Source: Minisyncoccota bacterium (lineage in GTDB: Bacteria > Patescibacteriota > Minisyncoccia > UBA6257 > GWB1-50-10). From it: a DNA stretch of 64,000 bases. The position numbers and the translations under genes are program-made. Numbering within the stretch: the stretch's first letter is position 1; each line of letters begins with the position of its first letter. A model generated the notes under the pieces. That model made no database searches, had not been told where the DNA came from, and saw nothing but the letters and a program-made list of their open reading frames with translations. The stretch covers positions 1,424-65,423 of the forward strand of contig JBAYJE010000003.1 of assembly GCA_041665265.1 (NCBI GenBank), given 5' to 3'. This document shows positions 1 to 21,769 of this stretch, piece by piece.

Positions 1-2147
1 AGTCTTGTAAGGAAATAATCCAAATTGTGTCGTAATCCCATTCCAACATTCGGATCGCCCATTTCAAGCAATGAATACTCAGGTATTGTATCCAAGAGAT
101 AAGTAATTATTTCCTTTGCGATATCATTTGGCAGCTCTCGTGCGTTATTTACTAATATGCGCCACAGTCTTTCTCTTGGGTATTCGCCTTCCGTATAAGC
201 AAATTTTGGATCTTCAAATGCTAAAGCGACAGTCGATGTTTTGTTAATAATCTTTTCTCTCCAAGTCATGTAAAACCGATGCTGTCCGATATCCGCAGGC
301 TTCGATAGATTTACGATCAAGTCTAAATACGTTTCGAGATTTCTTCCGTTAGTCCAACCACCATTGAAACAAGCGAGTGATGTGCGCACATCCTCTGGTA
401 CGCTGTCTATACGAGCGTAGTTATTGCTTCGCGGAAAATCTTCTCCAATTGCCTTGAGCCTCACGTCAACATTAAATACTTGATCCAGAAGAAAACGTTG
501 ATGACTGTCTTTCGGAAAGAGATCAAGATATTCCTTGTAGTAGGTTGAGTTTTTGTAAGTAGAGTCGCTAAAGGACGAACGTTGTTGACTATTAGTATCT
601 TCAGGATAGCCATCCTCGTGCGGTAAGACGAGTGAAAAGAATCCACGTCCGCCTTTTGTTTCAGTATCATATATTTTACGAAAAACGCTGGGGTAATGAA
701 TGTAAATCAGTAATAGATTTATAAGATCTCTTTTGTCGAAATCGCTGTTTTGAAAGTTGGTGTTTTGAAGATCAAACATCAAAACTGTATTGATAAGACG
801 TTTTAGTTTTCTTACGTCTCCTATAAAGGGGAGGTAGCGGTGATACGTGGGTGATTTATAGATATCAAGCAGGCCACCAACGGCTTGGCGCATTGGCAGC
901 GGATCGACAAGGCTAGTAGTTAGAGTTTTTTCAAGATTGTCGGATACATATTTTGCTAGATCTGCTCTCTCCAGGTAGAGACTTATTTTTATATTCACAA
1001 ACTTTTCCAGGAATTCGCCAACCTTTTCTATATCAGGAGTTTCGGCTTCCAAGATGCCGATGTTCTCGGTATCGTAGCAAATGACATACGAGACATTAGG
1101 AAATGCAAAGCTCTTTCTAATAACAAACAATATATCTTTTATTTCAGCGAAGCTGATTCGATCGAGGTCATCGATGACAATTACTACCTTTTTGGGAAAA
1201 CGTTTTAGGACTGCGCCCAGGTCATCGCAAGCTTCATCGGCAGTATAATCAACCGCCAATGTCGGCAGAGTTAATCCAAATAAAGAAAACCTTCCTATCT
1301 CCTTAAGAAGTCGAGCATACTTAGAAATCAACGGCTTTATTTCTGGTATAAAGGAATCCTTCTGGATGGCGTGAATGAGACCATCAATAAAAATCTCAAG
1401 TAGGTTCGCAGTACCCAAATAACGCAAAGGGCTGAATTTATATATCACAACCTCTTCCTTGTACTTTTCATCCCAATATTCTTTACAGAAATTAATAAAA
1501 GTTGATTTACCAATACCCCAGGGCGCATCTACTCCAAACACAAAGCTTTCAGGCGATCCGCCATTATAGACCTGTTCAGCAAATCTCTCCGCCTTTTCTG
1601 AGAAATTAAGCAAGTCCGCTTCTTTCTTTTCCAGTTCCTTATCAACAACAAACGAAGAAGCTGTTTGCTTCTCTTTCAAAATCAGTACTAGTTGTCTGAG
1701 CATTACGAGGACTCCCAAAATGAACGGGCCGGAAACTATGGTGAGTGCTTGGGTAATGTTCAGAGACGAAACAATGCGTACATCCCAGGTTGAGAGAAAA
1801 CCTCCCCAAGCAATACTCAACCAAATTCCAAAGCCGAGAGCTGCAAGGACATCGATGCGACCGCTTCTAAGTATCTTCTTAAGATCAGAAAAAATACCCC
1901 TCGCCAGCAGATATACAATCAAGAGAATAATGCCGAGTATGGAAAATAGTAGAGCCTTACTTTCGTAATTGTTTAAAATAACCCATTGATTAATCTTGTC
2001 CGAGAGTAGGATTGATATATGCCATATCTCGGCGGTCAAAACACCAAGAAAAGCCGTTTTGGTCAGCATTACAAGATTCGCTGTGACAATCCGAAAGTCG
2101 GACAGAGATTCTTTCAGCTTGATGATGGGTTTTTTAATATTTGGCAT
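1..2147 (-). CDS. KAP-like P-loop NTPase with an N-terminal 3-TM module. The C-terminus runs off the window start, so the gene is partial.
   Basis: Reverse-strand translation starts at ATG 2145-2147 (MPNIKKPIIKLKESL...) and has no stop through position 1. There are three hydrophobic helices, then Walker A 'GVDAPWGIGKST' and Walker B 'VVIVIDDLDRISF', which are KAP-family signatures. It is missing from the ORF track because no stop codon lies inside the window. Confidence 0.55.
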   Translation of the reverse strand, partial: MPNIKKPIIKLKESLSDFRIVTANLVMLTKTAFLGVLTAEIWHISILLSDKINQWVILNNYESKALLFSILGIILLIVYLLARGIFSDLKKILRSGRIDVLAALGFGIWLSIAWGGFLSTWDVRIVSSLNITQALTIVSGPFILGVLVMLRQLVLILKEKQTASSFVVDKELEKKEADLLNFSEKAERFAEQVYNGGSPESFVFGVDAPWGIGKSTFINFCKEYWDEKYKEEVVIYKFSPLRYLGTANLLEIFIDGLIHAIQKDSFIPEIKPLISKYARLLKEIGRFSLFGLTLPTLAVDYTADEACDDLGAVLKRFPKKVVIVIDDLDRISFAEIKDILFVIRKSFAFPNVSYVICYDTENIGILEAETPDIEKVGEFLEKFVNIKISLYLERADLAKYVSDNLEKTLTTSLVDPLPMRQAVGGLLDIYKSPTYHRYLPFIGDVRKLKRLINTVLMFDLQNTNFQNSDFDKRDLINLLLIYIHYPSVFRKIYDTETKGGRGFFSLVLPHEDGYPEDTNSQQRSSFSDSTYKNSTYYKEYLDLFPKDSHQRFLLDQVFNVDVRLKAIGEDFPRSNNYARIDSVPEDVRTSLACFNGGWTNGRNLETYLDLIVNLSKPADIGQHRFYMTWREKIINKTSTVALAFEDPKFAYTEGEYPRERLWRILVNNARELPNDIAKEIITYLLDTIPEYSLLEMGDPNVGMGLRHNLDYFLTR

Positions 2148-2212: not shown

Positions 2213-2398
2213 GTGGATATGAATAAAAATAATGAGTTTTACAGAGCAGAAGATCTGGCCCAGAAATTAAAGGTCAATATTATGACCATTTACAGATATA
2301 TTAAAAGTCGCAAATTAAAGGCTTACAAAATAGGAAAAGAGTTTAGAATTGATAAGAAAGAATTTGAGTCTTTTTTAGATAAAGCAAAAACTAATTAA
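2213..2398 (+). CDS. Small HTH DNA-binding protein of the excisionase/MerR-like family. It may be the controller (C-protein-like) of the R-M pair.
   Basis: 61 aa. 'AEDLAQKLKVNIMTIYRYIKSRKL' is a helix-turn-helix. It is immediately upstream of, and co-oriented with, the R and M genes. Confidence 0.5.
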   Translation: MDMNKNNEFYRAEDLAQKLKVNIMTIYRYIKSRKLKAYKIGKEFRIDKKEFESFLDKAKTN

Positions 2399-2400
2399 AT

Positions 2401-3105
2401 ATGACCAACAAAGAAGACGAAATTATTGACCCAGTGGAAGCCGTGGATGAGGTTGAACTCAACGCTGCCACAGCGACAGCTTCCCCGGAGGAAAAAATAA
2501 GAATTCTCGCCGATAAGTATGCTGTCGCACTTAAGGGCAAAATAGATGAACGAGTAAGTGTAATGAAAAGCGATGACAATTCTCACTACCTCATTTATAG
2601 AGTTTTAGGTATCTCAGAAAAAGAGGGTGAGCTGATAGACGTCTATCAAAATAAGGGTCGTTTCTTGTATAAATACGCTGGCTCTTTCCTTGAAGCAGCT
2701 GCGATCCTTTGCTTCAAGGAAAAGTTTCCAGAAGCGCAAGCAAAACTTCGAATTCCAAATACTATAGGACAACGCCCCGCAACCTTCGAGATTGATTGTT
2801 TGATAGAAAATGATGCGTATGAGATCAAATGGAGAGACGCAACTACCGATGGGGATCATATCACCAAAGAGCATACGCGTTTGAAAAATATTAATAACGC
2901 TCACTATCGGCCTATAAGAGTGATGTTTTATTATCCAAACAGAGAACAAGCAATTAGGATACAACAAACCTTAAAGACACTTTATCTTGGTTTTAAGGGT
3001 GAATACTATTTTGGTGATGAAGCGTGGGAGCATATACATACAAAAACAGGAATTGATCTAAAGGGTATCTTAATCAAGATAGCTGAAGAACGAAACGGAA
3101 AATAA
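2401..3105 (+). CDS. Putative Type II restriction endonuclease of the PD-(D/E)xK type
   Basis: 234 aa. 'FEIDCLIENDAYEIKW' fits a D...(D/E)xK nuclease motif. There is a 3-nt gap to the HTH gene and a 2-nt gap to the downstream MTase. It has an acidic N-terminal tail. Confidence 0.45.
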   Translation: MTNKEDEIIDPVEAVDEVELNAATATASPEEKIRILADKYAVALKGKIDERVSVMKSDDNSHYLIYRVLGISEKEGELIDVYQNKGRFLYKYAGSFLEAAAILCFKEKFPEAQAKLRIPNTIGQRPATFEIDCLIENDAYEIKWRDATTDGDHITKEHTRLKNINNAHYRPIRVMFYYPNREQAIRIQQTLKTLYLGFKGEYYFGDEAWEHIHTKTGIDLKGILIKIAEERNGK

Positions 3106-3107
3106 TT

Positions 3108-4289
3108 ATGCAATTAGAGAATCAAATCATAAAAGGAGATTGTCTCGATGTCCTCAAAAGGGTTGAAGATCAATCCGTAGATTTGATTTACCTTGATCCT
3201 CCTTTCTTTACACAAAGGCGGCACTCACAGAAGACCAGAGATAACGCGAAAGAATATGCATTTGAAGATGTATGGGATGACATACATCAATACACCTCTT
3301 ATCTGGAATCAAGGATGAGAGAGAGCCGGAGAGTTTTAAAAGACAGCGGAAGTCTTTTTCTTCATTGTGATAAGAAAGCAGTGCATCACCTTCGGGTAAT
3401 GCTTGATAAAGTGTTTGGAGAAGAAAATTTTAGAAGTGAAATTATTTGGACTTATAGACGATGGTCTAACTCAAAGGAAGGGCTTTTGAACGCTCACCAA
3501 AATATTTTATTTTATTCAAAAACTGCCAAGTTCAAATTTAATAAGATACTAACTGATTATTCACCTACAACGAATTTAGACCAGATACTGCAGGCCCGTG
3601 AACGTAATGGACATAACAAGTCTGTGTACAAAAGGGATGTGAATGGAGAAGTTGTATTAGGCAAAGAAAAACTAGGGGTACCTCTTTCTGATGTATGGGA
3701 TATACCATTTTTAAATCCTAAAGCCGAAGAAAGAGTTGGATATCCCACTCAGAAACCAGTGATTTTGTTAGAGAAAATAATCTCCCTGGCTTCACATGAG
3801 GGAGATGTGATCCTCGATCCGTTTTGTGGTAGTGGCACTACGCTTGTTGCAGCCCTACTATTAGGCAGAAAGTATATCGGGATCGACACCTCGAAAGAGG
3901 CGGTTGAACTAACGAAAAAACGATTACTAAACCCTATCAAAACAGAATCTCACTTACTTAGAAGAGGTAAAGACGCCTATATAAATAAAGATGAGTCGAT
4001 ACGAACAATATTATTCCAAATGGATGCAAACGTTGTACAGAGAAACAAAGGAATAGATGGATTCCTCAAACAACATTATAAAGGCAGGCCAGTTGCAGTG
4101 TATATTCAAAGACCCGAACAATCCTTCTCAGATGCCTTATCTCTTTTAAAGAAAGCGAGTGATAAAAAGGGGGTTATCAGAAAAGTCTTAGTTAGAACCA
4201 ATGTGCCATCAGGTATCGCTGTTAAAATTGATAGCGAACTTCAAAATGAAGACATAGTAATAATCGATCACCCTCAGCATGTGATGTGA
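3108..4289 (+). CDS. DNA methyltransferase, beta-class amino-MTase (probably N6-adenine), with a C-terminal extension of about 130 aa
   Basis: Motif IV 'LDPPFF' comes before motif I 'DPFCGSGTT' (beta permutation). 'IKGDCLDVLKRVEDQSVDLIYLDPPF' is typical of this class. There are about 130 extra residues after the catalytic core. Confidence 0.8.
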   Translation: MQLENQIIKGDCLDVLKRVEDQSVDLIYLDPPFFTQRRHSQKTRDNAKEYAFEDVWDDIHQYTSYLESRMRESRRVLKDSGSLFLHCDKKAVHHLRVMLDKVFGEENFRSEIIWTYRRWSNSKEGLLNAHQNILFYSKTAKFKFNKILTDYSPTTNLDQILQARERNGHNKSVYKRDVNGEVVLGKEKLGVPLSDVWDIPFLNPKAEERVGYPTQKPVILLEKIISLASHEGDVILDPFCGSGTTLVAALLLGRKYIGIDTSKEAVELTKKRLLNPIKTESHLLRRGKDAYINKDESIRTILFQMDANVVQRNKGIDGFLKQHYKGRPVAVYIQRPEQSFSDALSLLKKASDKKGVIRKVLVRTNVPSGIAVKIDSELQNEDIVIIDHPQHVM

Positions 4290-4298
4290 ATAACTTCA

Positions 4299-4335
4299 TT
4301 TGACGACTTATTACCAAACCCGCTAAAATATAAAT
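4299..4335 (+). promoter_or_regulatory. Promoter-like element (TTGACG ... TAAAAT/TATAAAT) at the start of a 320-bp noncoding stretch
   Basis: TTGACG at 4299-4304. The -10-like sequences TAAAAT at 4324-4329 and TATAAAT at 4329-4335 have non-ideal spacing of 19-24 nt. Confidence 0.25.
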
Positions 4336-4362
4336 ATCAGAGTTAGTTAGTCTGACGGCGAC

Positions 4363-4471
4363 TGAATCTCTTCAGTCTAAACGTGACGGGGCTACGACTT
4401 CTGTTATCAAACCTTTTCGCATGTGCGGATCGGAGCTTGATGACAAGAGTCGTGGCCCCTTTTTCGTTTTC
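4363..4471 (+). ncRNA. Candidate structured small RNA or terminator module. It has hairpin 4363-4380 plus a long 12-bp-closed stem-loop at 4388-4459 followed by a U-tract.
   Basis: GACTGAA-tctc-TTCAGTC is a perfect 7-bp hairpin. GGGGCTACGACT at 4388-4399 pairs with AGTCGTGGCCCC at 4448-4459 (11/12, one G-U), and the enclosed 48 nt contains the CGCAtgTGCG hairpin. Then comes TTTTTCGTTTTC at 4460-4471. Confidence 0.35.
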
Positions 4472-4545
4472 TAACTAACTCCCGATAAATTCCCTCTGAG
4501 GCTAAGGTGCCCTGAAGATGTAACGACGAATTAGAAGAACCAGAC

Positions 4546-4585
4546 AAGGCTAGTCCCCGACGGGGCCTGGCTTTTATTTTATTAA
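4546..4585 (+). terminator. Rho-independent terminator-like hairpin (CCCCGACGGGG core) plus a T-run
   Basis: GTCCCCGACGGGGCC with an extended imperfect stem, followed by TTTTATTTTATT. Confidence 0.4.
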
Positions 4586-4612
4586 CCAATTAATCAATAA
4601 CAAAAAAACAAT

Positions 4613-4813
4613 ATGTTACCCAACGAAGCAGTGCAGGAGTTTAAAGAGCTTTACGAAAAACGCTATGGAGTGAAGTTGTCCGATGTCGAAGCAACGCTCA
4701 GAGCCAATAACCTTTTTAAGCTCTATAAGATCACCTATATGGGTGAGCCATCAGTAGATGATTTCAAAGAAAAATTGAATACAAGTCATGATCTCAAGCC
4801 AGACAACAATTAG
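4613..4813 (+). CDS. Hypothetical small protein (66 aa)
   Basis: It is an ORF with an ATG immediately after the A-rich tract. There are no recognisable motifs. It overlaps the next gene by 26 nt. Confidence 0.3.
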   Translation: MLPNEAVQEFKELYEKRYGVKLSDVEATLRANNLFKLYKITYMGEPSVDDFKEKLNTSHDLKPDNN

Positions 4814-5096
4814 CGAAATTCAGTTCTACCCGGTTAAACCCCAAGATGGCCTACTTGGGTTTGTTTCGTTTGTCCTGGACGGCAAATTCTGGATGGGATC
4901 GGTAGCGGTGTTCACCCGCAAAGACGGCGGGTATCGGCTCGTATACCCCACGCGCAAAGTGGCCGGGCAGAATGTGAACATTTTCCATCCGATTAATCAG
5001 GCCGTTGGCCAACAGGTCGAAGCAGTTATCAGTGAAAAAGTAGCAGAAATATTTAGTGAACAATATGGAACAACCGAACCAGAAAACTCGTGGTAA
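4788..5096 (+). CDS. spoVG: SpoVG-family nucleic-acid-binding protein
   Basis: 'FVLDGKFWMGSVAVFTRKDGGYRLVYPTRKVAGQNVNIFHPINQAVGQQVEAV' aligns with the SpoVG core, including the HPIN motif. This is the start of the ~50%-GC segment. Confidence 0.6.
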   Translation: MISSQTTISEIQFYPVKPQDGLLGFVSFVLDGKFWMGSVAVFTRKDGGYRLVYPTRKVAGQNVNIFHPINQAVGQQVEAVISEKVAEIFSEQYGTTEPENSW

Positions 5097-5472
5097 GAAC
5101 TTAAACTTCTTTCCGGCCCCGCATACGCCGTTCGACAACGACCGGCTGCGCGCCTTGCTCAGTCACGCCGAGCGGGATTTTTTAATGGTGCTTTGTCATC
5201 TCTCCAATCGCTTTGCTGATAAGGACGGCTGGTTTTGGCATACCGATGCTCCGTTCACCGGACAGAGTGGAAGGATTCGGGGACTTACGTCATATGGCTT
5301 TGGTACGACCACCTGCAAACGCGTCAGAAAGAAACTACTTTCGCTTGGCCTGATCGAAACAAAAGGAAACCCACACAAGCGCGGCCGAACCGGTGGCACC
5401 GTTTATCGGATCAACAAAGAAATGTTGGGAATGGCTATAGACCATAGTGGGCCTAAGAACAGACCACCATGA
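5056..5472 (+). CDS. Winged-helix DNA-binding protein, replication-initiator or phage-regulator-like
   Basis: 138 aa, basic. 'KRVRKKLLSLGLIETKGNPHKRGRTGGTVYRINKEML' looks like a wHTH wing. It lies inside the GC-rich segment next to the recombinase. Confidence 0.35.
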   Translation: MNNMEQPNQKTRGKNLNFFPAPHTPFDNDRLRALLSHAERDFLMVLCHLSNRFADKDGWFWHTDAPFTGQSGRIRGLTSYGFGTTTCKRVRKKLLSLGLIETKGNPHKRGRTGGTVYRINKEMLGMAIDHSGPKNRPP

Positions 5473-5697
5473 TACTTACCTTCAGACCACTAAGGTCTCC
5501 CTAGTAAGAAAGAGGAATTAAGAATTAAAAGTAAGATTAGTTGTAAATAACAACAGCAAAAGCTGTCCAATGTTGAAAGGTTCGGGGGTTGGGCAACTCT
5601 TGGGCAAAACTTGGGTGGATTTTGAGGATGTTTGACTTCATCCAAGCATTAGCAGATGTTGTACCTAGACCAATAAAAATTAACGAAAAATAACCAT

Positions 5698-6429
5698 ATG
5701 ACAAAAAATATAAGAATTACAGCAGTAATCGCCATTGTAGCGATCATTGGGGTGACTTACGGGATTTACACCCTTTCAGGACACAAAGCCCCGCGTGAGG
5801 GCAATGTTGCGCCCGTAGAAGGAACGGTAAGCCAGGCCGAACTAGACCGGGCAACCGCTTCCCTCAAAAGCGCAATTAACGTAGCTGATCAACTTTCCGG
5901 CACCACCGGCACAAGCTTCACCTTTCAGGCACAGCCGACCTATGGCCACTACGGGAACTTCGGTCTCGTAAAGTATGTGAACCAAGTTAAGGGCGTGGGG
6001 CTGGTTGATGAGACAGCCGTCACATTTCACGGCGAGACTGACAATGACAATGCCGAGGTCGATTCGAAAACCGGCCAAGTCATCTCTTTTCACCGATCCA
6101 TTGACCACACCAACCCCGGAAAAGAAAAAACTCAAGCGGAAATAGAAACCACTATGCGGATATTCCTCAATGAGGTGTACCCGGACTTTAAGCAGGTCGA
6201 GCCGACACTGACATTCAGTCCCGGTATAAAAGGCGTTCGCCTTAACAATGGCAATTACTTCTTTGACTGGGAGGATAACGACTACCAGAAGCAGCTGCCC
6301 GAAGGGGTTGAGACAGAACGTGCTCCGTTCATCCAGGTCGGTATTACTTCAAGCGGATATATCTTCAGCTACAACAACACGATTGATATTTACCGCAATG
6401 CGCTAAAAGAATTTAATCTCACCCAATAA
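5698..6429 (+). CDS. Hypothetical membrane-anchored (N-terminal TM) extracytoplasmic protein, element cargo
   Basis: N-terminal 'ITAVIAIVAIIGVTYGIYTL' is a TM helix and the remainder is hydrophilic. It ends 2 nt before the recombinase gene. Confidence 0.5.
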   Translation: MTKNIRITAVIAIVAIIGVTYGIYTLSGHKAPREGNVAPVEGTVSQAELDRATASLKSAINVADQLSGTTGTSFTFQAQPTYGHYGNFGLVKYVNQVKGVGLVDETAVTFHGETDNDNAEVDSKTGQVISFHRSIDHTNPGKEKTQAEIETTMRIFLNEVYPDFKQVEPTLTFSPGIKGVRLNNGNYFFDWEDNDYQKQLPEGVETERAPFIQVGITSSGYIFSYNNTIDIYRNALKEFNLTQ

Positions 6430-6431
6430 CT

Positions 6432-8045
6432 ATGCACCAGGAAGTATCACAAAAACTTAAATACTTCCTCTACGCAAGAAAGTCCTCTGAACAGGAGGAC
6501 AGACAAGTCGCTTCGATTGATTCGCAAATAGATTTTTTGAAAGATTTAGCAAAGCGTGAACACCTCGAGATCGTAGAGGTACTAACTGAATCCAAAAGTG
6601 CCAAAGCCCCGGGTAGGCCAATCTTTAACCAGATGACCGATCGGATTGAAAAGGGCGAAGCGCACGGCGTTATCTGCTGGAAGATAGACCGCCTAGCCCG
6701 CAATCCGGTGGACGGCGGTAAAGTGCAGTGGCTTTTACAAAGCAGCATTATCAAGCACATCAAGACCTTTGAGAGAAGCTATTACCCGTCTGATAATGTG
6801 CTCCTCATTAGCGTGGAGCTGGGCATGGCCAACCAATACATCCGTGACTTGGCCATCAATTCCCAGCGTGGAGTCAAAACCAAAGCAGCAACCGGCTGGT
6901 TCCCGGCCCCAGCTCCGATCGGATATTTGAACATAGCCGACAACGAATCAGGCATGAAAATTATCGGGAATGATCCGAAGCGTTTTGATCTGGTAAAAAA
7001 GATGTTTGAGCTGATGCTCACCGGTAATTATTCAGTACCGCGCATTCTTAAAATTGCTAACGGCGACTGGAGTTTCAGGATGCCGAGCGGACAGCCGATT
7101 GCCCGGAGCACGCTGTATAAACTTCTGACTGAGCCGTTTTATTACGGCCGGTATCAGTGGCCCAAAAAAGGCGGCATCTGGTACCAGGGCAAGCACGAAC
7201 CGATGATCACCGAAGAACAGTTTGACCGCATTCAGGAACTGCTGGGCCGAAAAGGAAAACCGCGCCCCAAAGTCCACGAATTTGCCTATACCGGCATGAT
7301 CCGCTGCGGTGAATGTGGTTGCCTCATCACGGCCGAAGAAAAGACTAAGCGTAATCAGAATGGCAACGTACATCACTACACTTACTATCACTGCACCAAA
7401 CGAAAAGGCCCCTGCACCCAAAGATGCGTCGAAGTAAAAGCCCTCGAGGTAGAAATCCAGAAAGCCCTTGCCACGATCGAGATACCGGAAGAATTTCACG
7501 ACTGGGCCATGAACTGGCTCCGGGTTGAGAACGCAAAAGAATCAGTTGACCGGAATACTATCCTGGCCACCCAGCAGAGAACGTATGAAGCATGTCTGAG
7601 AAAAATTGACCGGCTCATCGACATGAGAGCAGCCGGAGAAATAAGCGAAGAAGAATTTATAACAAAGAAAAATGAAAGTTTGAAAGAGAAAGCAAAACTT
7701 CAGGCACTGCTCAAAGCGACAGATGAACGAGCAGACAGCTGGCTTCAGACAGCAGAGCAAATACTTATATTCGCACAGGATGCACGGGAAAAGTTCGCCG
7801 GAGGCACACTTTCGGCAAAGCGCACGGTACTTTCAGCCCTTGGTTCGAACCTCCTGCTAAAAGACAAAAAACTCAATGGTGAACTGGATAAAGCCTTGTT
7901 ACCGCTGCAAAGGATCGCAGAAGCCGTCCGCGAGCATGCAAGACGGTTCGAACCTCTAACAAATCCAAGAAACAAACTGACATTCGAGGAACTTTGCATG
8001 CAAAGTCCAAACTGGCTGCGGGACCTGGATTCGAACCAAGATTGA
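6432..8045 (+). CDS. Large serine recombinase (integrase)
   Basis: N-terminal resolvase catalytic domain 'YARKSSEQEDRQVASIDSQ' (Ser nucleophile) and 'KIDRLARN', then a recombinase domain and a Cys-rich zinc ribbon 'CGECGCLITAEE...YYHCTKRKGPC'. It is 537 aa, and the last 33 nt overlap the tRNA-Gln 3' end. Confidence 0.9.
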   Translation: MHQEVSQKLKYFLYARKSSEQEDRQVASIDSQIDFLKDLAKREHLEIVEVLTESKSAKAPGRPIFNQMTDRIEKGEAHGVICWKIDRLARNPVDGGKVQWLLQSSIIKHIKTFERSYYPSDNVLLISVELGMANQYIRDLAINSQRGVKTKAATGWFPAPAPIGYLNIADNESGMKIIGNDPKRFDLVKKMFELMLTGNYSVPRILKIANGDWSFRMPSGQPIARSTLYKLLTEPFYYGRYQWPKKGGIWYQGKHEPMITEEQFDRIQELLGRKGKPRPKVHEFAYTGMIRCGECGCLITAEEKTKRNQNGNVHHYTYYHCTKRKGPCTQRCVEVKALEVEIQKALATIEIPEEFHDWAMNWLRVENAKESVDRNTILATQQRTYEACLRKIDRLIDMRAAGEISEEEFITKKNESLKEKAKLQALLKATDERADSWLQTAEQILIFAQDAREKFAGGTLSAKRTVLSALGSNLLLKDKKLNGELDKALLPLQRIAEAVREHARRFEPLTNPRNKLTFEELCMQSPNWLRDLDSNQD

Positions 8046-8086
8046 CGGATTCAGAGTCCGCTGTCCTACCATTAGACGATCCCGCA
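8013..8086 (-). tRNA. tRNA-Gln (anticodon CUG)
   Basis: The reverse complement reads TGCGGGA-TC-GTCT-AATGGTA-GGAC-A-GCGGA-CTCTGAA-TCCGT-CAAT-CTTGG-TTCGAAT-CCAGG-TCCCGCA-G-CCA. It is a clean cloverleaf with an encoded CCA. Confidence 0.85.
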
Positions 8087-8134
8087 ATATTCAATTATCA
8101 ACCCGCCAACCGTACTATTAGACGATCCCGTAAT
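8067..8134. repeat. 22-bp direct repeat that duplicates the 5' part of tRNA-Gln (copies at 8067-8088 and 8113-8134)
   Basis: taccattagacgatcccgcaat versus tactattagacgatcccgtaat (20/22). The second copy lies just outside the tRNA. Confidence 0.6.
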
Positions 8135-8398
8135 GTCGAGGTGATTATATCCCACCACCCTCGATTTTTCAATTGAATCTGGAGCTACATAATGCAATAG
8201 AACTAAAAAAGCGTCAATTTAACACTTTATAGGTTATGTATGATAAAAGGGATGGAACATCCAAAACATTCGCATATTGTGTATTGGATTATTGGCGTCC
8301 TTATCGCAATTCTTGGATTTCTTTTATATCCTGAAATTGCGATTCCTCGTAACGAGGTATTGCCCACAGTACTACAAAATAATTAGCAACGGATTTTC

Positions 8399-21479: not shown

Positions 21480-21551
21480 GGGTGTGTAGTTCAGTGGTAG
21501 AACGCTGTCCTGATAAGACAGAGGTCGAAGGTTCGATTCCTTCCACACCCA
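21480..21551 (+). tRNA. tRNA-Ile (anticodon GAU)
   Basis: GGGTGTG-TA-GTTC-AGTGGTA-GAAC-G-CTGTC-CTGATAA-GACAG-AGGTC-GAAGG-TTCGATT-CCTTC-CACACCC-A. Confidence 0.85.
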
Positions 21552-21587
21552 CAAAGAAAGGCCTTGTGAGGAGGTCTTTTCTTTAGC

Positions 21588-21661
21588 GGGCCTGTAGCTC
21601 AGTTGGTTAGAGCGCCTCATTTGCAATGAGGAGGTCACCGGTTCGAATCCGGTCAGGTCCA
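21588..21661 (+). tRNA. tRNA-Ala (anticodon UGC) with a G3:U70 identity pair
   Basis: GGGCCTGTAGCTCAGTTGGTTAGAGCGCCTCATTTGCAATGAGGAGGTCACCGGTTCGAATCCGGTCAGGTCCA. Confidence 0.85.
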
Positions 21662-21769
21662 CAAATTGCTCTTTTGGGTAGAAGTGTCCCACTTAACAAA
21701 TAGAGAGTTCTACTCAATTTAGTATTGATTTGAAAAATGGGTCGCGATAGATAATACTTATATACGTAG

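What the first reader, a model, noticed from the sequence alone, without database searches (positions are those of the whole stretch)
4600..8090. A mini integrative element (~3.5 kb, ~50% GC) with a SpoVG-like protein, a wHTH, a membrane cargo protein and a large serine recombinase that overlaps tRNA-Gln
GC content rises from ~38-42% to ~50% from about 4800 to 8045. The genes are co-oriented and tightly packed (2-nt gap or overlaps): a small ORF, a SpoVG-family protein, a basic wHTH protein, an N-terminally anchored extracytoplasmic protein, and a 537-aa large serine recombinase whose last 33 nt overlap the 3' end of tRNA-Gln(CUG) on the opposite strand. That is the classic signature of tRNA-targeted integration in which the element restores the tRNA 3' end. 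SpoVG is an unusual cargo for such an element and could act as an element-encoded nucleic-acid-binding regulator.
Basis: partly seen in the sequence, partly recalled or inferred. Interest (0 to 1): 0.6.

Follow-up and report, generated by a model that had tools for sequence, protein, structure and literature searches.

The report
Serine-recombinase defence island at tRNA-Gln
The flagged 3.5 kb is the conserved backbone of a 9.1-kb mobile island in a Paceibacterota (CPR) genome, inserted at the tip of tRNA-Gln by a large serine recombinase whose attachment site lies inside its own gene, so integration swaps the enzyme's C-terminal tail.

Summary
The described genes, the GC rise (48% against 40%) and the 33-nt overlap between the recombinase gene and tRNA-Gln(CUG) are all real. 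The element is about 9.1 kb, not 3.5 kb.

- **Left junction (attL).** It lies 1.1 kb left of the window start, on the source contig. It carries the same 6-bp core GGCTGC as the tRNA junction. It is followed by the displaced, still-open 36-codon native tail of the recombinase gene.
- **Junction geometry.** The tRNA T-loop motif TTCGAACC lies 10 nt from the core at the tRNA junction. A mimic, TTAGAACC, lies 15 nt from the core at attL. This 5-bp offset is the published attB/attP geometry of large serine integrases.
- **Content.** The island carries a PifA-like KAP NTPase, an HTH protein and an ApaLI-type restriction-modification system. These are followed by a conserved backbone: promoter, structured leader RNA with two terminators, a 66-aa protein, SpoVG, a winged-helix protein, iteron-like repeats, a membrane protein and the recombinase.
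- **Family trait.** In 48 of 82 related loci the recombinase gene end overlaps a convergent tRNA (Asn, Gln, Trp, His, Ser or Ala).
It sits in a conserved terminator hairpin and is not an att site.

I rate it a new variant of a known kind. The closest functional analogue is phage Mx8 integrase.

The parts
1..2147 (-). Cargo: KAP-family P-loop NTPase, PifA-like, 1045 aa. The gene continues about 990 nt left of the window start. The element's attL lies a further ~115 nt left, at L001 335-340 (window -1106 to -1101).
   Evidence: Called gene L001 451-3588. Pfam KAP_NTPase 1.7e-37. PADLOC PifA 8e-28 and QatA 6.6e-11. attL.
2213..2398 (+). Cargo: small HTH_17 (excisionase/MerR-type) DNA-binding protein. 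It may control the R-M operon or be a candidate directionality factor.
   Evidence: Pfam HTH_17 5.4e-12. PHROG excisionase 4e-9. PADLOC mad1 9.6e-9. A 67%-identical homologue sits directly upstream of the recombinase in L061.
2401..3105 (+). Cargo: ApaLI-like type II restriction endonuclease.
   Evidence: Pfam RE_ApaLI 8.9e-95. PADLOC REase_II 4.2e-94.
3108..4289 (+). Cargo: N6/N4 DNA methyltransferase partnered with the endonuclease. Its stop codon abuts the left edge of the backbone.
   Evidence: Pfam N6_N4_Mtase 5.4e-57. PADLOC MTase_II 2.2e-169.
4300..4329 (+). Sigma-70-like promoter of the backbone (TTGACG-18-TAAAAT). Homology to other backbone copies begins inside it, at about 4316-4324.
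   Evidence: 10 of 12 matches. Conserved position in 12 related loci. Homology starts.
4338..4612 (+). Conserved structured leader or small RNA: one short hairpin, a long terminator hairpin (4388-4459 plus U-run), a small hairpin, and a second terminator hairpin (about 4546-4573 plus U-run) just before the 66-aa ORF.
   Evidence: 12-sequence alignment with 89.6% of cells paired, against 32-53% when partners are slid. 10 pairs show changes on both sides. 0 of 500 shuffles reach the covariation score. No Rfam family at E<=1.
4613..4813 (+). orf66: 66-aa helical-hairpin protein and the accessory gene most often linked to this recombinase clade. Candidate directionality factor or regulator (inferred).
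   Evidence: BLASTP matches in 44 ORFs, about 40 of 82 related loci, always upstream of and co-oriented with the recombinase. 63 database homologues, all unnamed. AlphaFold pLDDT 81 with no significant fold match.
4788..5096 (+). SpoVG-family protein, a backbone gene.
   Evidence: Pfam SpoVG 2.8e-7, above the gathering cut-off. PDB SpoVG 2i9z E 0.013. Present in 16 related loci.
5056..5472 (+). Basic winged-helix DNA-binding protein, with a probable start at 5065. Candidate iteron-binding initiator or repressor.
   Evidence: pI 10.4. AlphaFold pLDDT 76, pTM 0.71. Weak Foldseek hits to wHTH regulators, RepA_N 4pql/5kbj and RctB domain 1, all E>=0.07. Weak PHROG replication-initiator hits.
5585..5623 (.). 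Iteron-like direct repeats in 11-bp phase (TTGGGCAACTC / TTGGGCAAAAC / TTGGGTGGATT). Candidate origin or operator.
   Evidence: The 39 nt are 100% identical in L032 although its flanks are about 70-75% identical. Asn-subfamily backbones have TTGGAYAAAAC repeats at the same place.
5698..6429 (+). N-terminally anchored membrane or extracytoplasmic protein. It is the most variable backbone gene.
   Evidence: Sequence. Weak DUF4901 match, 6e-4. 89% identity in L005 but 23-41% in the other backbones.
6432..8045 (+). Large serine recombinase in its integrated form, 537 aa. From Arg529 the last 9 residues (RDLDSNQD and the preceding R) are encoded by host tRNA DNA read antisense; Trp527-Leu528 span the core.
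   Evidence: Pfam domains. PDB relatives SPbeta YokA/SprA 1e-11 and A118 integrase 6e-9. YARKSS and DRLAR motifs in the sequence. Tail analysis.
7990..8040 (.). attR: P half-site, core GGCTGC (8014-8019), then B' half-site formed by the tRNA acceptor 3' strand and T arm. TTCGAACC lies 10 nt from the core.
   Evidence: Homology to other backbone copies ends at the core.
8013..8086 (-). Host tRNA-Gln(CUG), the integration target, intact after integration.
   Evidence: ARAGORN. Rfam tRNA 61.8 bits. By eye from the sequences it is only roughly three-quarters identical to the tRNA-Gln beside the 93%-identical element copy L002, so it is host DNA.

Best explanation
Window 4290-8019 is the conserved backbone of a 9,120-bp integrative island. 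The island spans source-contig L001 335 to 9460, which is window -1106 to 8019. It sits at the 3' end of tRNA-Gln(CUG) in a Paceibacterota (CPR) genome.

How it works:
- **Integration.** In the free form the island's large serine recombinase is a 563-aa protein. Its last ~37 codons contain attP. The enzyme recombines attP with an attB made of the tRNA's acceptor 3' strand and T arm (B' half) plus the DNA just downstream of the tRNA (B half).
- **Site of exchange.** Strand exchange falls within the shared core GGCTGC. The stretch common to four att pairs is GCTG, the complement of tRNA nucleotides 71-74.
- **Consequences.** The tRNA stays intact. The recombinase gene is split: its native 36-codon tail (QALDDIRTTILEGWKSYELEAAVKIMIQGQMVSV) is left at attL, 9.1 kb away. 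The enzyme acquires a 9-residue tail read from the antisense of the tRNA. Excision would rebuild the full-length gene.
- **Two modules.** A variable defence cargo lies on the P' side: PifA-like KAP NTPase, HTH_17 and an ApaLI-type R-M system. A conserved backbone lies on the P side: promoter, double-terminator leader RNA, orf66, SpoVG, wHTH protein, iteron-like repeats, membrane protein and recombinase.

Shown here: the gene content, the two junctions, their geometry, the family-wide pattern, and the existence of attP-type and attL-type copies.

Inferred, not shown:
- The island is still mobile.
- The wHTH protein and the iterons form a replicon for the excised form.
- orf66 or HTH_17 acts as directionality factor.
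- The leader RNA keeps the backbone operon off.
For: 1. **attL.** L001 335-340 is GGCTGC, followed by AAGCCCTAGACGACATTAGAACC. An in-frame open 36-codon tail follows. Joining the recombinase gene to it at the core gives one 563-aa ORF.
2. **Independent copy L170.** Its backbone start is 93% identical to the window's. It has the same junction (GGCTGC-GAACCCTGGACGACATTAGAACC) and a homologous displaced tail 4.4 kb upstream of its backbone. That junction is 76% identical to L001 335-413 at E 1e-9. Its cargo is different.
3. **attP-type copy L167.** It is 88% identical over window 4324-8029. Its recombinase has a free-form tail (..SPNWLTVLDDVGTFLLRSLL), and homology ends at the core.
4. **Core-to-motif spacing.** The spacing is 10 nt at tRNA junctions and 15 nt at attP/attL junctions, in both the Gln and Asn subfamilies. 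This matches the published 5-bp shift of the zinc-ribbon-domain motif between attB and attP (PMC3783163).
5. **More attL/attR pairs.** L052/L053 share core GCTG (8.7 kb). L054 shares TGCTGGG (11 kb). L036 at tRNA-Ala has a displaced tail 6.8 kb upstream.
6. **Family pattern.** In 48 of 82 related loci the recombinase ORF overlaps a convergent tRNA. By my reading of the C-termini of 40 close protein homologues, about 15 have tRNA-antisense tails (..LRGxDSN..) and about 17 have free tails (..LRLxDDVRT..).
7. **Horizontal spread.** L002 is 93% identical in the backbone and sits beside a clearly different tRNA-Gln.
8. **Composition.** GC is 47.3% in the backbone against 40.1% for the host.
9. **Variable cargo.** Defence genes lie left of the backbone in L082, L066, L039 and L170.
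Against: - No empty attB and no circular attP junction of this exact element was recovered.
- The closest relative genome (L085) has a contig end about 100 nt from the site.
- attL lies outside the given window. It rests on one contig plus homologous cases.
- The displaced-tail peptide of L001 has no significant BLASTP hit on its own. Support comes from nucleotide homology to L170, motif spacing and reading frame.
- The non-tRNA (B) half-sites are not conserved between hosts, which is unusual for serine integrases.
- For L036 no in-frame core could be defined.
- The backbone has a sharp left edge of its own that this model does not explain.
- The cargo has host-like GC (38.8%).
Confidence: 0.8

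Rival explanations
1. One reading: a self-contained ~3.5-kb mini element bounded by an att copy near 4562-4577 and the tRNA. The R-M and KAP genes would be unrelated neighbours.
For: - GC is elevated only in 4290-8019.
- The backbone has a sharp, reproducible left edge in many loci.
- GGGNCCTGGNTT occurs twice against 0.04 expected, but the pattern was derived from those same two sites.
Against: - The 4562-4573 copy is the 3' arm of a terminator hairpin that is conserved in backbones targeting tRNA-Asn.
- No P'-type half-site exists near 4290-4612.
- The displaced recombinase tail and P' half-site are 9.1 kb away in L001, and 4.4 kb upstream of the backbone in L170.
- Co-oriented cargo ORFs end exactly at the backbone edge in several loci.
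Confidence: 0.05
2. The backbone is a separately mobile or exchangeable cassette nested in a larger island. It would be swapped between islands through tandem integration and mixed attL x attR excision, or by another recombination system acting at its left edge.
For: - The left homology edge lies inside the promoter.
- The right edge lies exactly at the att core.
- The window is a mosaic. orf66 is about 80% identical to tRNA-Asn-targeting backbones, while the recombinase is only 53% identical to theirs and 70-73% identical to Gln-targeting ones.
- The same backbone occurs with different cargo in L170 and L167.
- L167 carries two recombinases in tandem.
Against: - No repeat or site-specific signature was found at the left edge.
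- Ordinary homologous recombination between related islands would give the same mosaics.
- This reading adds to the 9.1-kb island model rather than replacing it.
Confidence: 0.12
3. A decayed or immobilised remnant, such as a defective prophage or a domesticated recombinase. On this view the tRNA overlap is a fossil, not an active junction.
For: - No virion, conjugation or clear replication genes are present.
- Some relatives of the recombinase sit in phage-like contigs, for example L165 with Rad52, a PDDEXK nuclease, RuvC and a cI-like repressor.
- The integrated enzyme lacks its native tail.
Against: - All recombinase domains and motifs are intact.
- Both junctions keep an identical 6-bp core, and the displaced tail ORF is still open.
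- Copies 88-93% identical occur beside different tRNA-Gln genes and with different cargo.
Confidence: 0.1

Closest known systems
Large serine integrases of temperate phages (Listeria A118/LI integrase, SPbeta SprA/YokA, Bxb1, phiC31)
   Same: - Same architecture: resolvase catalytic domain, recombinase domain and zinc-ribbon domain.
- Short att sites of roughly 42 and 52 bp.
- A distal motif lies 5 bp closer to the centre in attB than in attP (PMC3783163).
- No long attL/attR repeat.
   Different: - At most 28% identical to any recombinase in deposited phage genomes.
- attP lies inside the enzyme's own 3' coding end, not beside the gene.
- The target is the 3' tip of a tRNA gene.
- Sister clades use Asn, Trp, His, Ser and Ala tRNAs.
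- The carrier is a small defence island without virion genes.
Myxococcus phage Mx8 integrase (intP/intX) and Mx9
   Same: attP lies within the int coding sequence. Integration therefore creates a recombinant int gene with a new 3' end. That change has been described as a molecular switch (PMC6070905).
   Different: Mx8 Int is a tyrosine recombinase (my knowledge), a mechanistically unrelated enzyme. The resemblance is in logic, not in family.
tRNA-targeting genomic islands with tyrosine integrases (Islander/TIGER class), including archaeal SSV-type elements whose int gene is split on integration
   Same: - The integrase gene abuts a tRNA gene.
- The tRNA remains functional.
- Cargo is adaptive or defensive (PMC4383910 abstract; PMC8371274 listed).
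   Different: Those islands duplicate tens of nucleotides of the tRNA as a direct repeat. Here the shared core is only 4-7 bp and no tRNA fragment repeat exists. The enzyme is a serine recombinase.
Tycheposons of Prochlorococcus
   Same: Small cargo-carrying elements with site-specific integrases that flank full and partial tRNA genes. A minority (27 of 937) encode a large serine recombinase (bioRxiv 10.1101/2020.12.28.424599).
   Different: - Different hosts and mostly tyrosine recombinases.
- No int-embedded attP is described in the passages I read.
- No shared backbone genes.
SpoVG nucleic-acid-binding proteins
   Same: The 102-aa protein passes the Pfam SpoVG threshold and aligns end to end with solved SpoVG structures.
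   Different: It is encoded in a mobile-element backbone, beside a structured leader RNA and a wHTH protein. Its target here is unknown.

Membership tests
Large serine recombinase (serine integrase) | N-terminal resolvase-type catalytic domain with a serine nucleophile | tested here: met
   Pfam Resolvase 1.1e-16, residues 12-155. The sequence has the YARKSS and DRLAR motifs. 3g13 and YokA hits.
Large serine recombinase (serine integrase) | Recombinase domain plus zinc-ribbon domain C-terminal to the catalytic domain | tested here: met
   PF07508 1.6e-12 and PF13408 2.6e-6. A118 integrase C-terminal-domain structure 4kis, E 6e-9.
Large serine recombinase (serine integrase) | attB about 10 bp shorter than attP, with the distal (zinc-ribbon) motif shifted 5 bp toward the centre in attB | tested here: met
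   Core to TTCGAACC is 10 nt in the tRNA half-site. Core to TTAGAACC is 15 nt in the P' half-site. The same 10 against 15 holds in the Asn subfamily. Criterion from PMC3783163. Only the right-hand halves show it clearly.
Large serine recombinase (serine integrase) | Exchange at a 2-bp central dinucleotide; integration unidirectional unless a directionality factor is present | not testable with these tools
   Only a 4-7 bp shared core can be read (GCTG is common to four pairs). Needs a biochemical assay.
tRNA-integrating genomic island (Islander-type definition) | Integrase gene next to a tRNA gene that stays intact | tested here: met
tRNA-integrating genomic island (Islander-type definition) | Displaced tRNA fragment forms a direct repeat at the far end of the island | tested here: not met
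   The best local alignment of the tRNA 3' region to the upstream 9 kb scores at chance level (12.0 against a shuffled maximum of 11.5). Only the 6-bp core is shared.
Int-embedded attP with C-terminal swap (Mx8 type) | attP inside the integrase ORF, so the prophage-form integrase has a different C-terminus | tested here: met
   The reconstructed attP ORF is 563 aa. The integrated ORF is 537 aa with a tRNA-antisense tail. Free and integrated tails both occur among homologues.
Int-embedded attP with C-terminal swap (Mx8 type) | Tyrosine recombinase catalytic fold | tested here: not met
   The enzyme is a serine recombinase. It works like Mx8 Int in this respect but is not a member of that family.
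SpoVG (PF04026) | Match to the family profile above the curated cut-off over the full domain | tested here: met
   31.0 bits against a 29.6 cut-off, profile positions 2-79 of 82. PDB 2i9z, 2i9x and 2ia9 are the top hits.
Iteron-type plasmid replicon | Winged-helix initiator next to phased direct repeats | tested here: inconclusive
   11-bp-phased repeats lie directly downstream of the wHTH gene in all five backbones examined. Fold matches to RepA_N and RctB are weak, E>=0.07. PHROG replication-initiator hits are E 5e-4 to 9e-3. A repressor with its operator fits equally well.
Type II restriction-modification system (ApaLI type) | Adjacent endonuclease and methyltransferase genes | tested here: met
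   RE_ApaLI 8.9e-95 and N6_N4_Mtase 5.4e-57, genes 2 nt apart.
Prophage | Capsid, terminase, tail or lysis genes | tested here: not met
   No structural PHROG or Pfam hit for any of the eight ORFs from 2213 to 8045 tested against PHROGs, nor for the KAP NTPase tested against Pfam and PADLOC.

The most novel reading that the evidence does not exclude
The tail swap may be a built-in directionality or state switch for a serine integrase. The free-form 563-aa enzyme, whose tail is dual-coded with the P' half-site, would favour integration. The 537-aa integrated form, which ends in tRNA-antisense codons, would be altered in activity or stability until excision rebuilds the gene.

On this reading the clade is a naturally retargeted series of integrases. 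They read the universal T-arm/acceptor end of different tRNAs. Control would come from a leader RNA with two terminators and an element-encoded SpoVG.
Probability: 0.2. Interest if true: 0.75.

Novelty: new variant of a known kind. Interest (0 to 1): 0.6.

Why it matters
- **Target choice.** Serine integrases are usually described as inserting into protein-coding or intergenic sites, with attP beside the gene. Here a large, diverse clade from candidate-phyla-radiation bacteria targets the 3' tip of tRNA genes with attP embedded in the enzyme's own coding end. Related enzymes have shifted between at least six tRNA species.
- **Comparative att-site data.** The clade offers a natural set of attP/attB pairs built on one conserved motif (T-loop TTCGAACC against a TTAGAACC mimic). 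This could help in understanding and re-engineering target choice in serine integrases.
- **Testable regulation.** It provides a serine-recombinase counterpart to the Mx8 intP/intX switch that can be tested directly.
- **Defence-gene spread.** It shows how restriction-modification and abortive-infection genes spread in organisms with tiny genomes and few known mobile elements.
- **Annotation practice.** Such islands leave no long tRNA repeat, so tRNA-repeat-based island finders would miss them. Recombinase C-termini in these genomes are partly host tRNA read backwards.

Tried and rejected
1. I looked for a direct repeat of the tRNA 3' end upstream of the recombinase in the window and in 36 related loci. 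Nothing exceeded shuffled controls except a weak hit in L052/L053. This rules out a classic tRNA-fragment attL.
2. I first treated the sharp left edge of the backbone (ATTTCCGTCAAC... in the Asn subfamily, about 4290-4324 in the window) as attL. I rejected this for three reasons. Cargo ORFs end exactly there, defence genes always lie to its left, and the real P' half-sites are kilobases away.
3. I searched the other loci with the 300 nt downstream of attP-type recombinases (L035, L039, L032, L008, L004, L073, L013). There were no matches.
4. I considered a crossover in the T-loop palindrome TTCGAA. I rejected it because homology between element copies in different hosts ends at the acceptor/CCA end.
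5. I sought an empty site through the right-flank AlkD gene in GTDB genomes. The closest relative, L085 (89% amino-acid identity), has a contig end about 100 nt from the site.
6. A scan of IMG/VR with the recombinase found nothing.
7. A fold search for orf66 gave no significant match. The wHTH protein gave only weak matches.
8. Rfam searches of the leader region at E<=1 found nothing.
9. Literature searches for a serine recombinase together with tRNA in Patescibacteria found no description.
10. BLASTP of the displaced tails against free-form recombinases gave only weak E-values (0.01-1), although the hits fall consistently at the extreme C-termini.

Full report
**Observation**

The five co-oriented ORFs at 4613-8045 are present as described.
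- The second ORF passes the Pfam SpoVG threshold (2.8e-7, 31.0 against 29.6 bits).
- The last ORF has the three domains of a large serine recombinase: Resolvase, Recombinase and Zn_ribbon_recom. Its solved-structure relatives are SPbeta YokA/SprA and A118 integrase.
- ARAGORN and Rfam both call tRNA-Gln(CTG) at 8013-8086 on the minus strand. The recombinase ORF ends at 8045, which gives a 33-nt overlap.
- GC is 48.3% in 4800-8045 against 40.1% for the rest of the window. No other 3.2-kb stretch exceeds 42.9%.

Minor errors in the finding:
- There is a 225-nt gap at 5473-5697, so the genes are not all tightly packed.
- GC is nearer 48% than 50%.
- The proposed core motif sits at 4562-4573, not 4566-4577.

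**Source and host**

The window is positions 1442-65441 of a 71-kb metagenome contig (ENA ERZ27249449 k141_1191768, fetched as L001). The right flank (AlkD, fmt, def and further genes) is 83-87% identical in nucleotides to a Candidatus Paceibacterota MAG (L085). The host is therefore a CPR/Patescibacteria bacterium.

**A family-wide trait**

A scan of metagenome contigs with the recombinase returned 80 loci with 38-98% identity.
- Counting these with L003 and L004, the recombinase ORF overlaps the 3' end of a convergent tRNA in 48 of 82 loci: Asn 23, Gln 14, Trp 4, His 4, Ser 2, Ala 1.
- About ten more loci end in tRNA-like codons next to tRNA genes that ARAGORN does not call. Several of these are tRNA-Asn genes interrupted in the anticodon loop.
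- L002/L005 is a 3.3-kb contig that is 93% identical to window 4784-8088. It lies beside a clearly different tRNA-Gln(CTG), roughly three-quarters identical by eye, with compensating acceptor-stem changes.
- The tRNA is therefore host DNA, and the element boundary lies at its 3' tip.

**The flagged region is a conserved backbone, not the whole element**

The gene set orf66, SpoVG, wHTH protein, membrane protein and recombinase recurs in at least a dozen loci. So does a ~300-nt upstream region with a promoter and a structured RNA.
- Among tRNA-Asn-targeting copies, homology starts sharply about 325 nt upstream of orf66 and stops at the tRNA tip.
- Immediately left of that edge lie restriction-modification genes, LexA-methylase fusions and OLD/AAA-type ATPases. 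These differ from locus to locus and often end exactly at the edge.
- In the window the corresponding genes are a PifA-like KAP NTPase, an HTH_17 protein and an ApaLI-type R-M pair.

**Finding attP and attL**

Recombinase genes that do not abut a tRNA end in a different but related tail..W-L-R-x-x-D-D-(I/V)-R-T.. (L035, L039, L073, L026). By my reading, about 17 of 40 close protein homologues have such a tail. Recombinases beside a tRNA end in ..W-L-R-x-x-D-S-N.., which is the antisense of CCA, the acceptor strand and the T arm.

I searched upstream regions for the free-form tail.
- On the source contig, 7.5 kb upstream of the recombinase start, the sequence reads ...CGCTTAAAAATC GGCTGC AAGCCCTAGACGACATTAGAACC... 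This encodes R-L-Q-A-L-D-D-I-R-T-T-I-L-E-G-W-K-S-Y-E-L-E-A-A-V-K-I-M-I-Q-G-Q-M-V-S-V-stop (L001 335 onward).
- The tRNA junction reads ...GTCCAAACT GGCTGC GGGACCTGGATTCGAACC...
- Both junctions share GGCTGC. Joining them at that core gives a single 563-aa ORF.
- The island from core to core is 9,120 bp. Its left end is at window -1106, outside the window.

**Independent support**

1. **L170.** Its backbone start is 93% identical to the window's. It has GGCTGC-GAACCCTGGACGACATTAGAACC and a homologous displaced tail (W-L-R-T-L-D-D-I-R-T-I-V-L-E-G-W-H-S-Y-E-M-E-T-A-V..) 4.4 kb upstream of its backbone. That junction is 76% identical to L001 335-413 (E 1e-9). Its cargo differs: a DUF4365 protein, HTH_17 and T5orf172.
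2. **L167.** It carries the backbone and recombinase at 88% identity over window 4324-8029, but with an attP-type tail (..SPNWLTVLDDVGTFLLRSLL). Homology stops at the core.
3. **Other pairs.** L052/L053 (core GCTG, 8.7 kb), L054 (core TGCTGGG, 11 kb) and L036 (tRNA-Ala) also have a P'-type half-site and displaced tail upstream. The stretch common to four cores is GCTG, the complement of tRNA positions 71-74.
4. **Geometry.** The motif T(T/C)(A/C)GAAC(C/A) lies 10 nt from the core in tRNA (B') half-sites and 15 nt from it in P' half-sites, in both the Gln and Asn subfamilies. This is the 5-bp shift of the zinc-ribbon-domain motif between attB and attP shown for the Listeria integrase and proposed for other serine integrases (PMC3783163). 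With a centre inside GCTG, the right half-sites are about 20 and 25 bp. That implies sites of about 42 and 52 bp.

**Consequences for the tRNA and the enzyme**

- The reconstructed empty site ends ...CCCGCAGCC|GATTTTT. After integration the gene reads ...CCCGCAGCCA|GTTTGG. Only the nucleotide after CC changes, and the tRNA is still called normally.
- The recombinase loses its native 36-residue tail. From Arg529 it gains nine residues (RDLDSNQD and the preceding R) read from host tRNA DNA; Trp527-Leu528 span the core.
- All catalytic and DNA-binding domains lie upstream of the swap, so the enzyme is not truncated in any conserved domain.
- The same logic is documented for the tyrosine integrase of phage Mx8: attP sits inside int, and integration gives a new 3' end (PMC6070905).

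**Backbone functions (inferred)**

- **Leader RNA.** A promoter at 4300-4329 drives a leader with four conserved helices. Of the base-pair cells, 89.6% are paired against 32-53% in slid controls. Ten pairs show double changes, and 0 of 500 shuffles reach the observed covariation. Two helices are terminator hairpins followed by U-runs, and each sequence folds this way on its own. No Rfam family matches.
- **orf66.** It is a helical hairpin with no fold match. It is the accessory gene most consistently linked to the recombinase. This makes it my first candidate for a directionality factor. HTH_17 is the second, because a homologue sits directly upstream of the recombinase in L061.
- **wHTH protein and repeats.** The 138-aa protein is basic and winged-helix. 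It has weak resemblance to plasmid initiator N-terminal domains. Directly downstream are 11-bp-phased repeats. These are conserved to 100% over 39 nt in L032 and replaced by a different phased repeat in the Asn subfamily. This suggests either an initiator with iterons, so that the excised form could replicate, or a repressor with its operator.
- **Membrane protein.** It is the fastest-diverging backbone gene.
- **Transfer genes.** No virion or conjugation genes are present.

**Mosaicism**

The window's orf66-to-wHTH segment is closest to tRNA-Asn-targeting backbones (orf66 about 80% amino-acid identity, 74% nucleotide identity to L025). Its recombinase is 53% identical to theirs and 70-73% identical to Gln-targeting ones. 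Backbone copies combine with different cargo, with breaks at the att core and inside the promoter. Tandem integration followed by mixed excision would produce breaks at the core. The promoter-edge break is unexplained.

**What is not shown**

- No empty site or circular junction for this element was found.
- The left (non-tRNA) half-sites are not conserved between hosts.
- A tRNA-Gln 5' fragment at 8095-8138, also present in the relative, remains unexplained.

**Comparison and novelty**

The enzyme is a member of the large serine recombinase family by domain content and att-site geometry. It is at most 28% identical to any recombinase in deposited phage genomes.
- The island is not a classic Islander-type tRNA island, because the defining tRNA-fragment repeat is absent.
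- It works like Mx8 Int with respect to the int-embedded attP, but it belongs to a different enzyme family.
- Full-text searches found no description of serine-recombinase/tRNA elements in Patescibacteria. Tycheposons include a minority with large serine recombinases.

I rate it a new variant of a known kind, with moderate to high interest.

Noticed in passing
window 8095-8138: Read on the minus strand, this is a copy of the first ~22 nt of tRNA-Gln (acceptor 5' strand plus D arm), 28 nt upstream of the intact tRNA-Gln. The closest relative genome (L085) has a better copy at the same place, followed by unrelated sequence and then a contig end. No tRNA is called there. It could be a remnant of an older tRNA copy or integration, or the 5' exon of an intron-containing tRNA.
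   Followed up: partly
window 4338-4612: A conserved structured leader or small RNA with its own promoter and two terminator hairpins. It has no Rfam match and is supported by covariation in 12 loci. It may be a transcription attenuator for the backbone operon.
   Followed up: partly
window 5585-5623: 11-bp-phased direct repeats (TTGGGCAA..) between the wHTH gene and the membrane-protein gene. The 39 nt are 100% identical in L032 although its flanks are about 70-75% identical. Other backbones carry a different phased repeat at the same position.
   Followed up: partly
L034, L037, L040, L066 (just downstream of the recombinase ORF end): tRNA-Asn genes at the integration junction are interrupted in the anticodon loop and are not called by ARAGORN. 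This fits the group I introns reported in Patescibacteria tRNA-Asn genes (PMC13011429, seen).
   Followed up: no
L071 ~3600-3680 and L072: A tRNA-Gln next to the recombinase carries a 27-nt insertion inside the T-loop: GGATTCG[GCTCGCCCATAGGGCTACGCCCGAGGG]AACCAAG.
   Followed up: no
L167 1-8300: A composite element. The backbone with an attP-type recombinase is followed by DUF6624, DUF2726 and HTH_3 genes, a rolling-circle Rep (REP_ORF2-G2P), and a second 502-aa serine recombinase that itself abuts tRNA-Gln(CTG).
   Followed up: partly
L039 11570-12700: An attP-type recombinase tail is followed by about 1 kb (a 163-aa ORF and a GIY-YIG gene) and then an intact tRNA-Asn. attP and a potential attB therefore lie 1 kb apart in direct orientation.
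   Followed up: no
window 21480-21662: A tRNA-Ile(GAT)/tRNA-Ala(TGC) pair, the classic rRNA-spacer pair, with no rRNA match anywhere in the window at Rfam gathering thresholds.
   Followed up: no
L165 (contig of P0008): A 60%-identical recombinase with a free-form tail sits in a phage-like contig with Rad52/Rad22, a PDDEXK nuclease, RuvC, DUF932 and a cI-like HTH_3 protein. The clade therefore also serves temperate phages of these bacteria.
   Followed up: no
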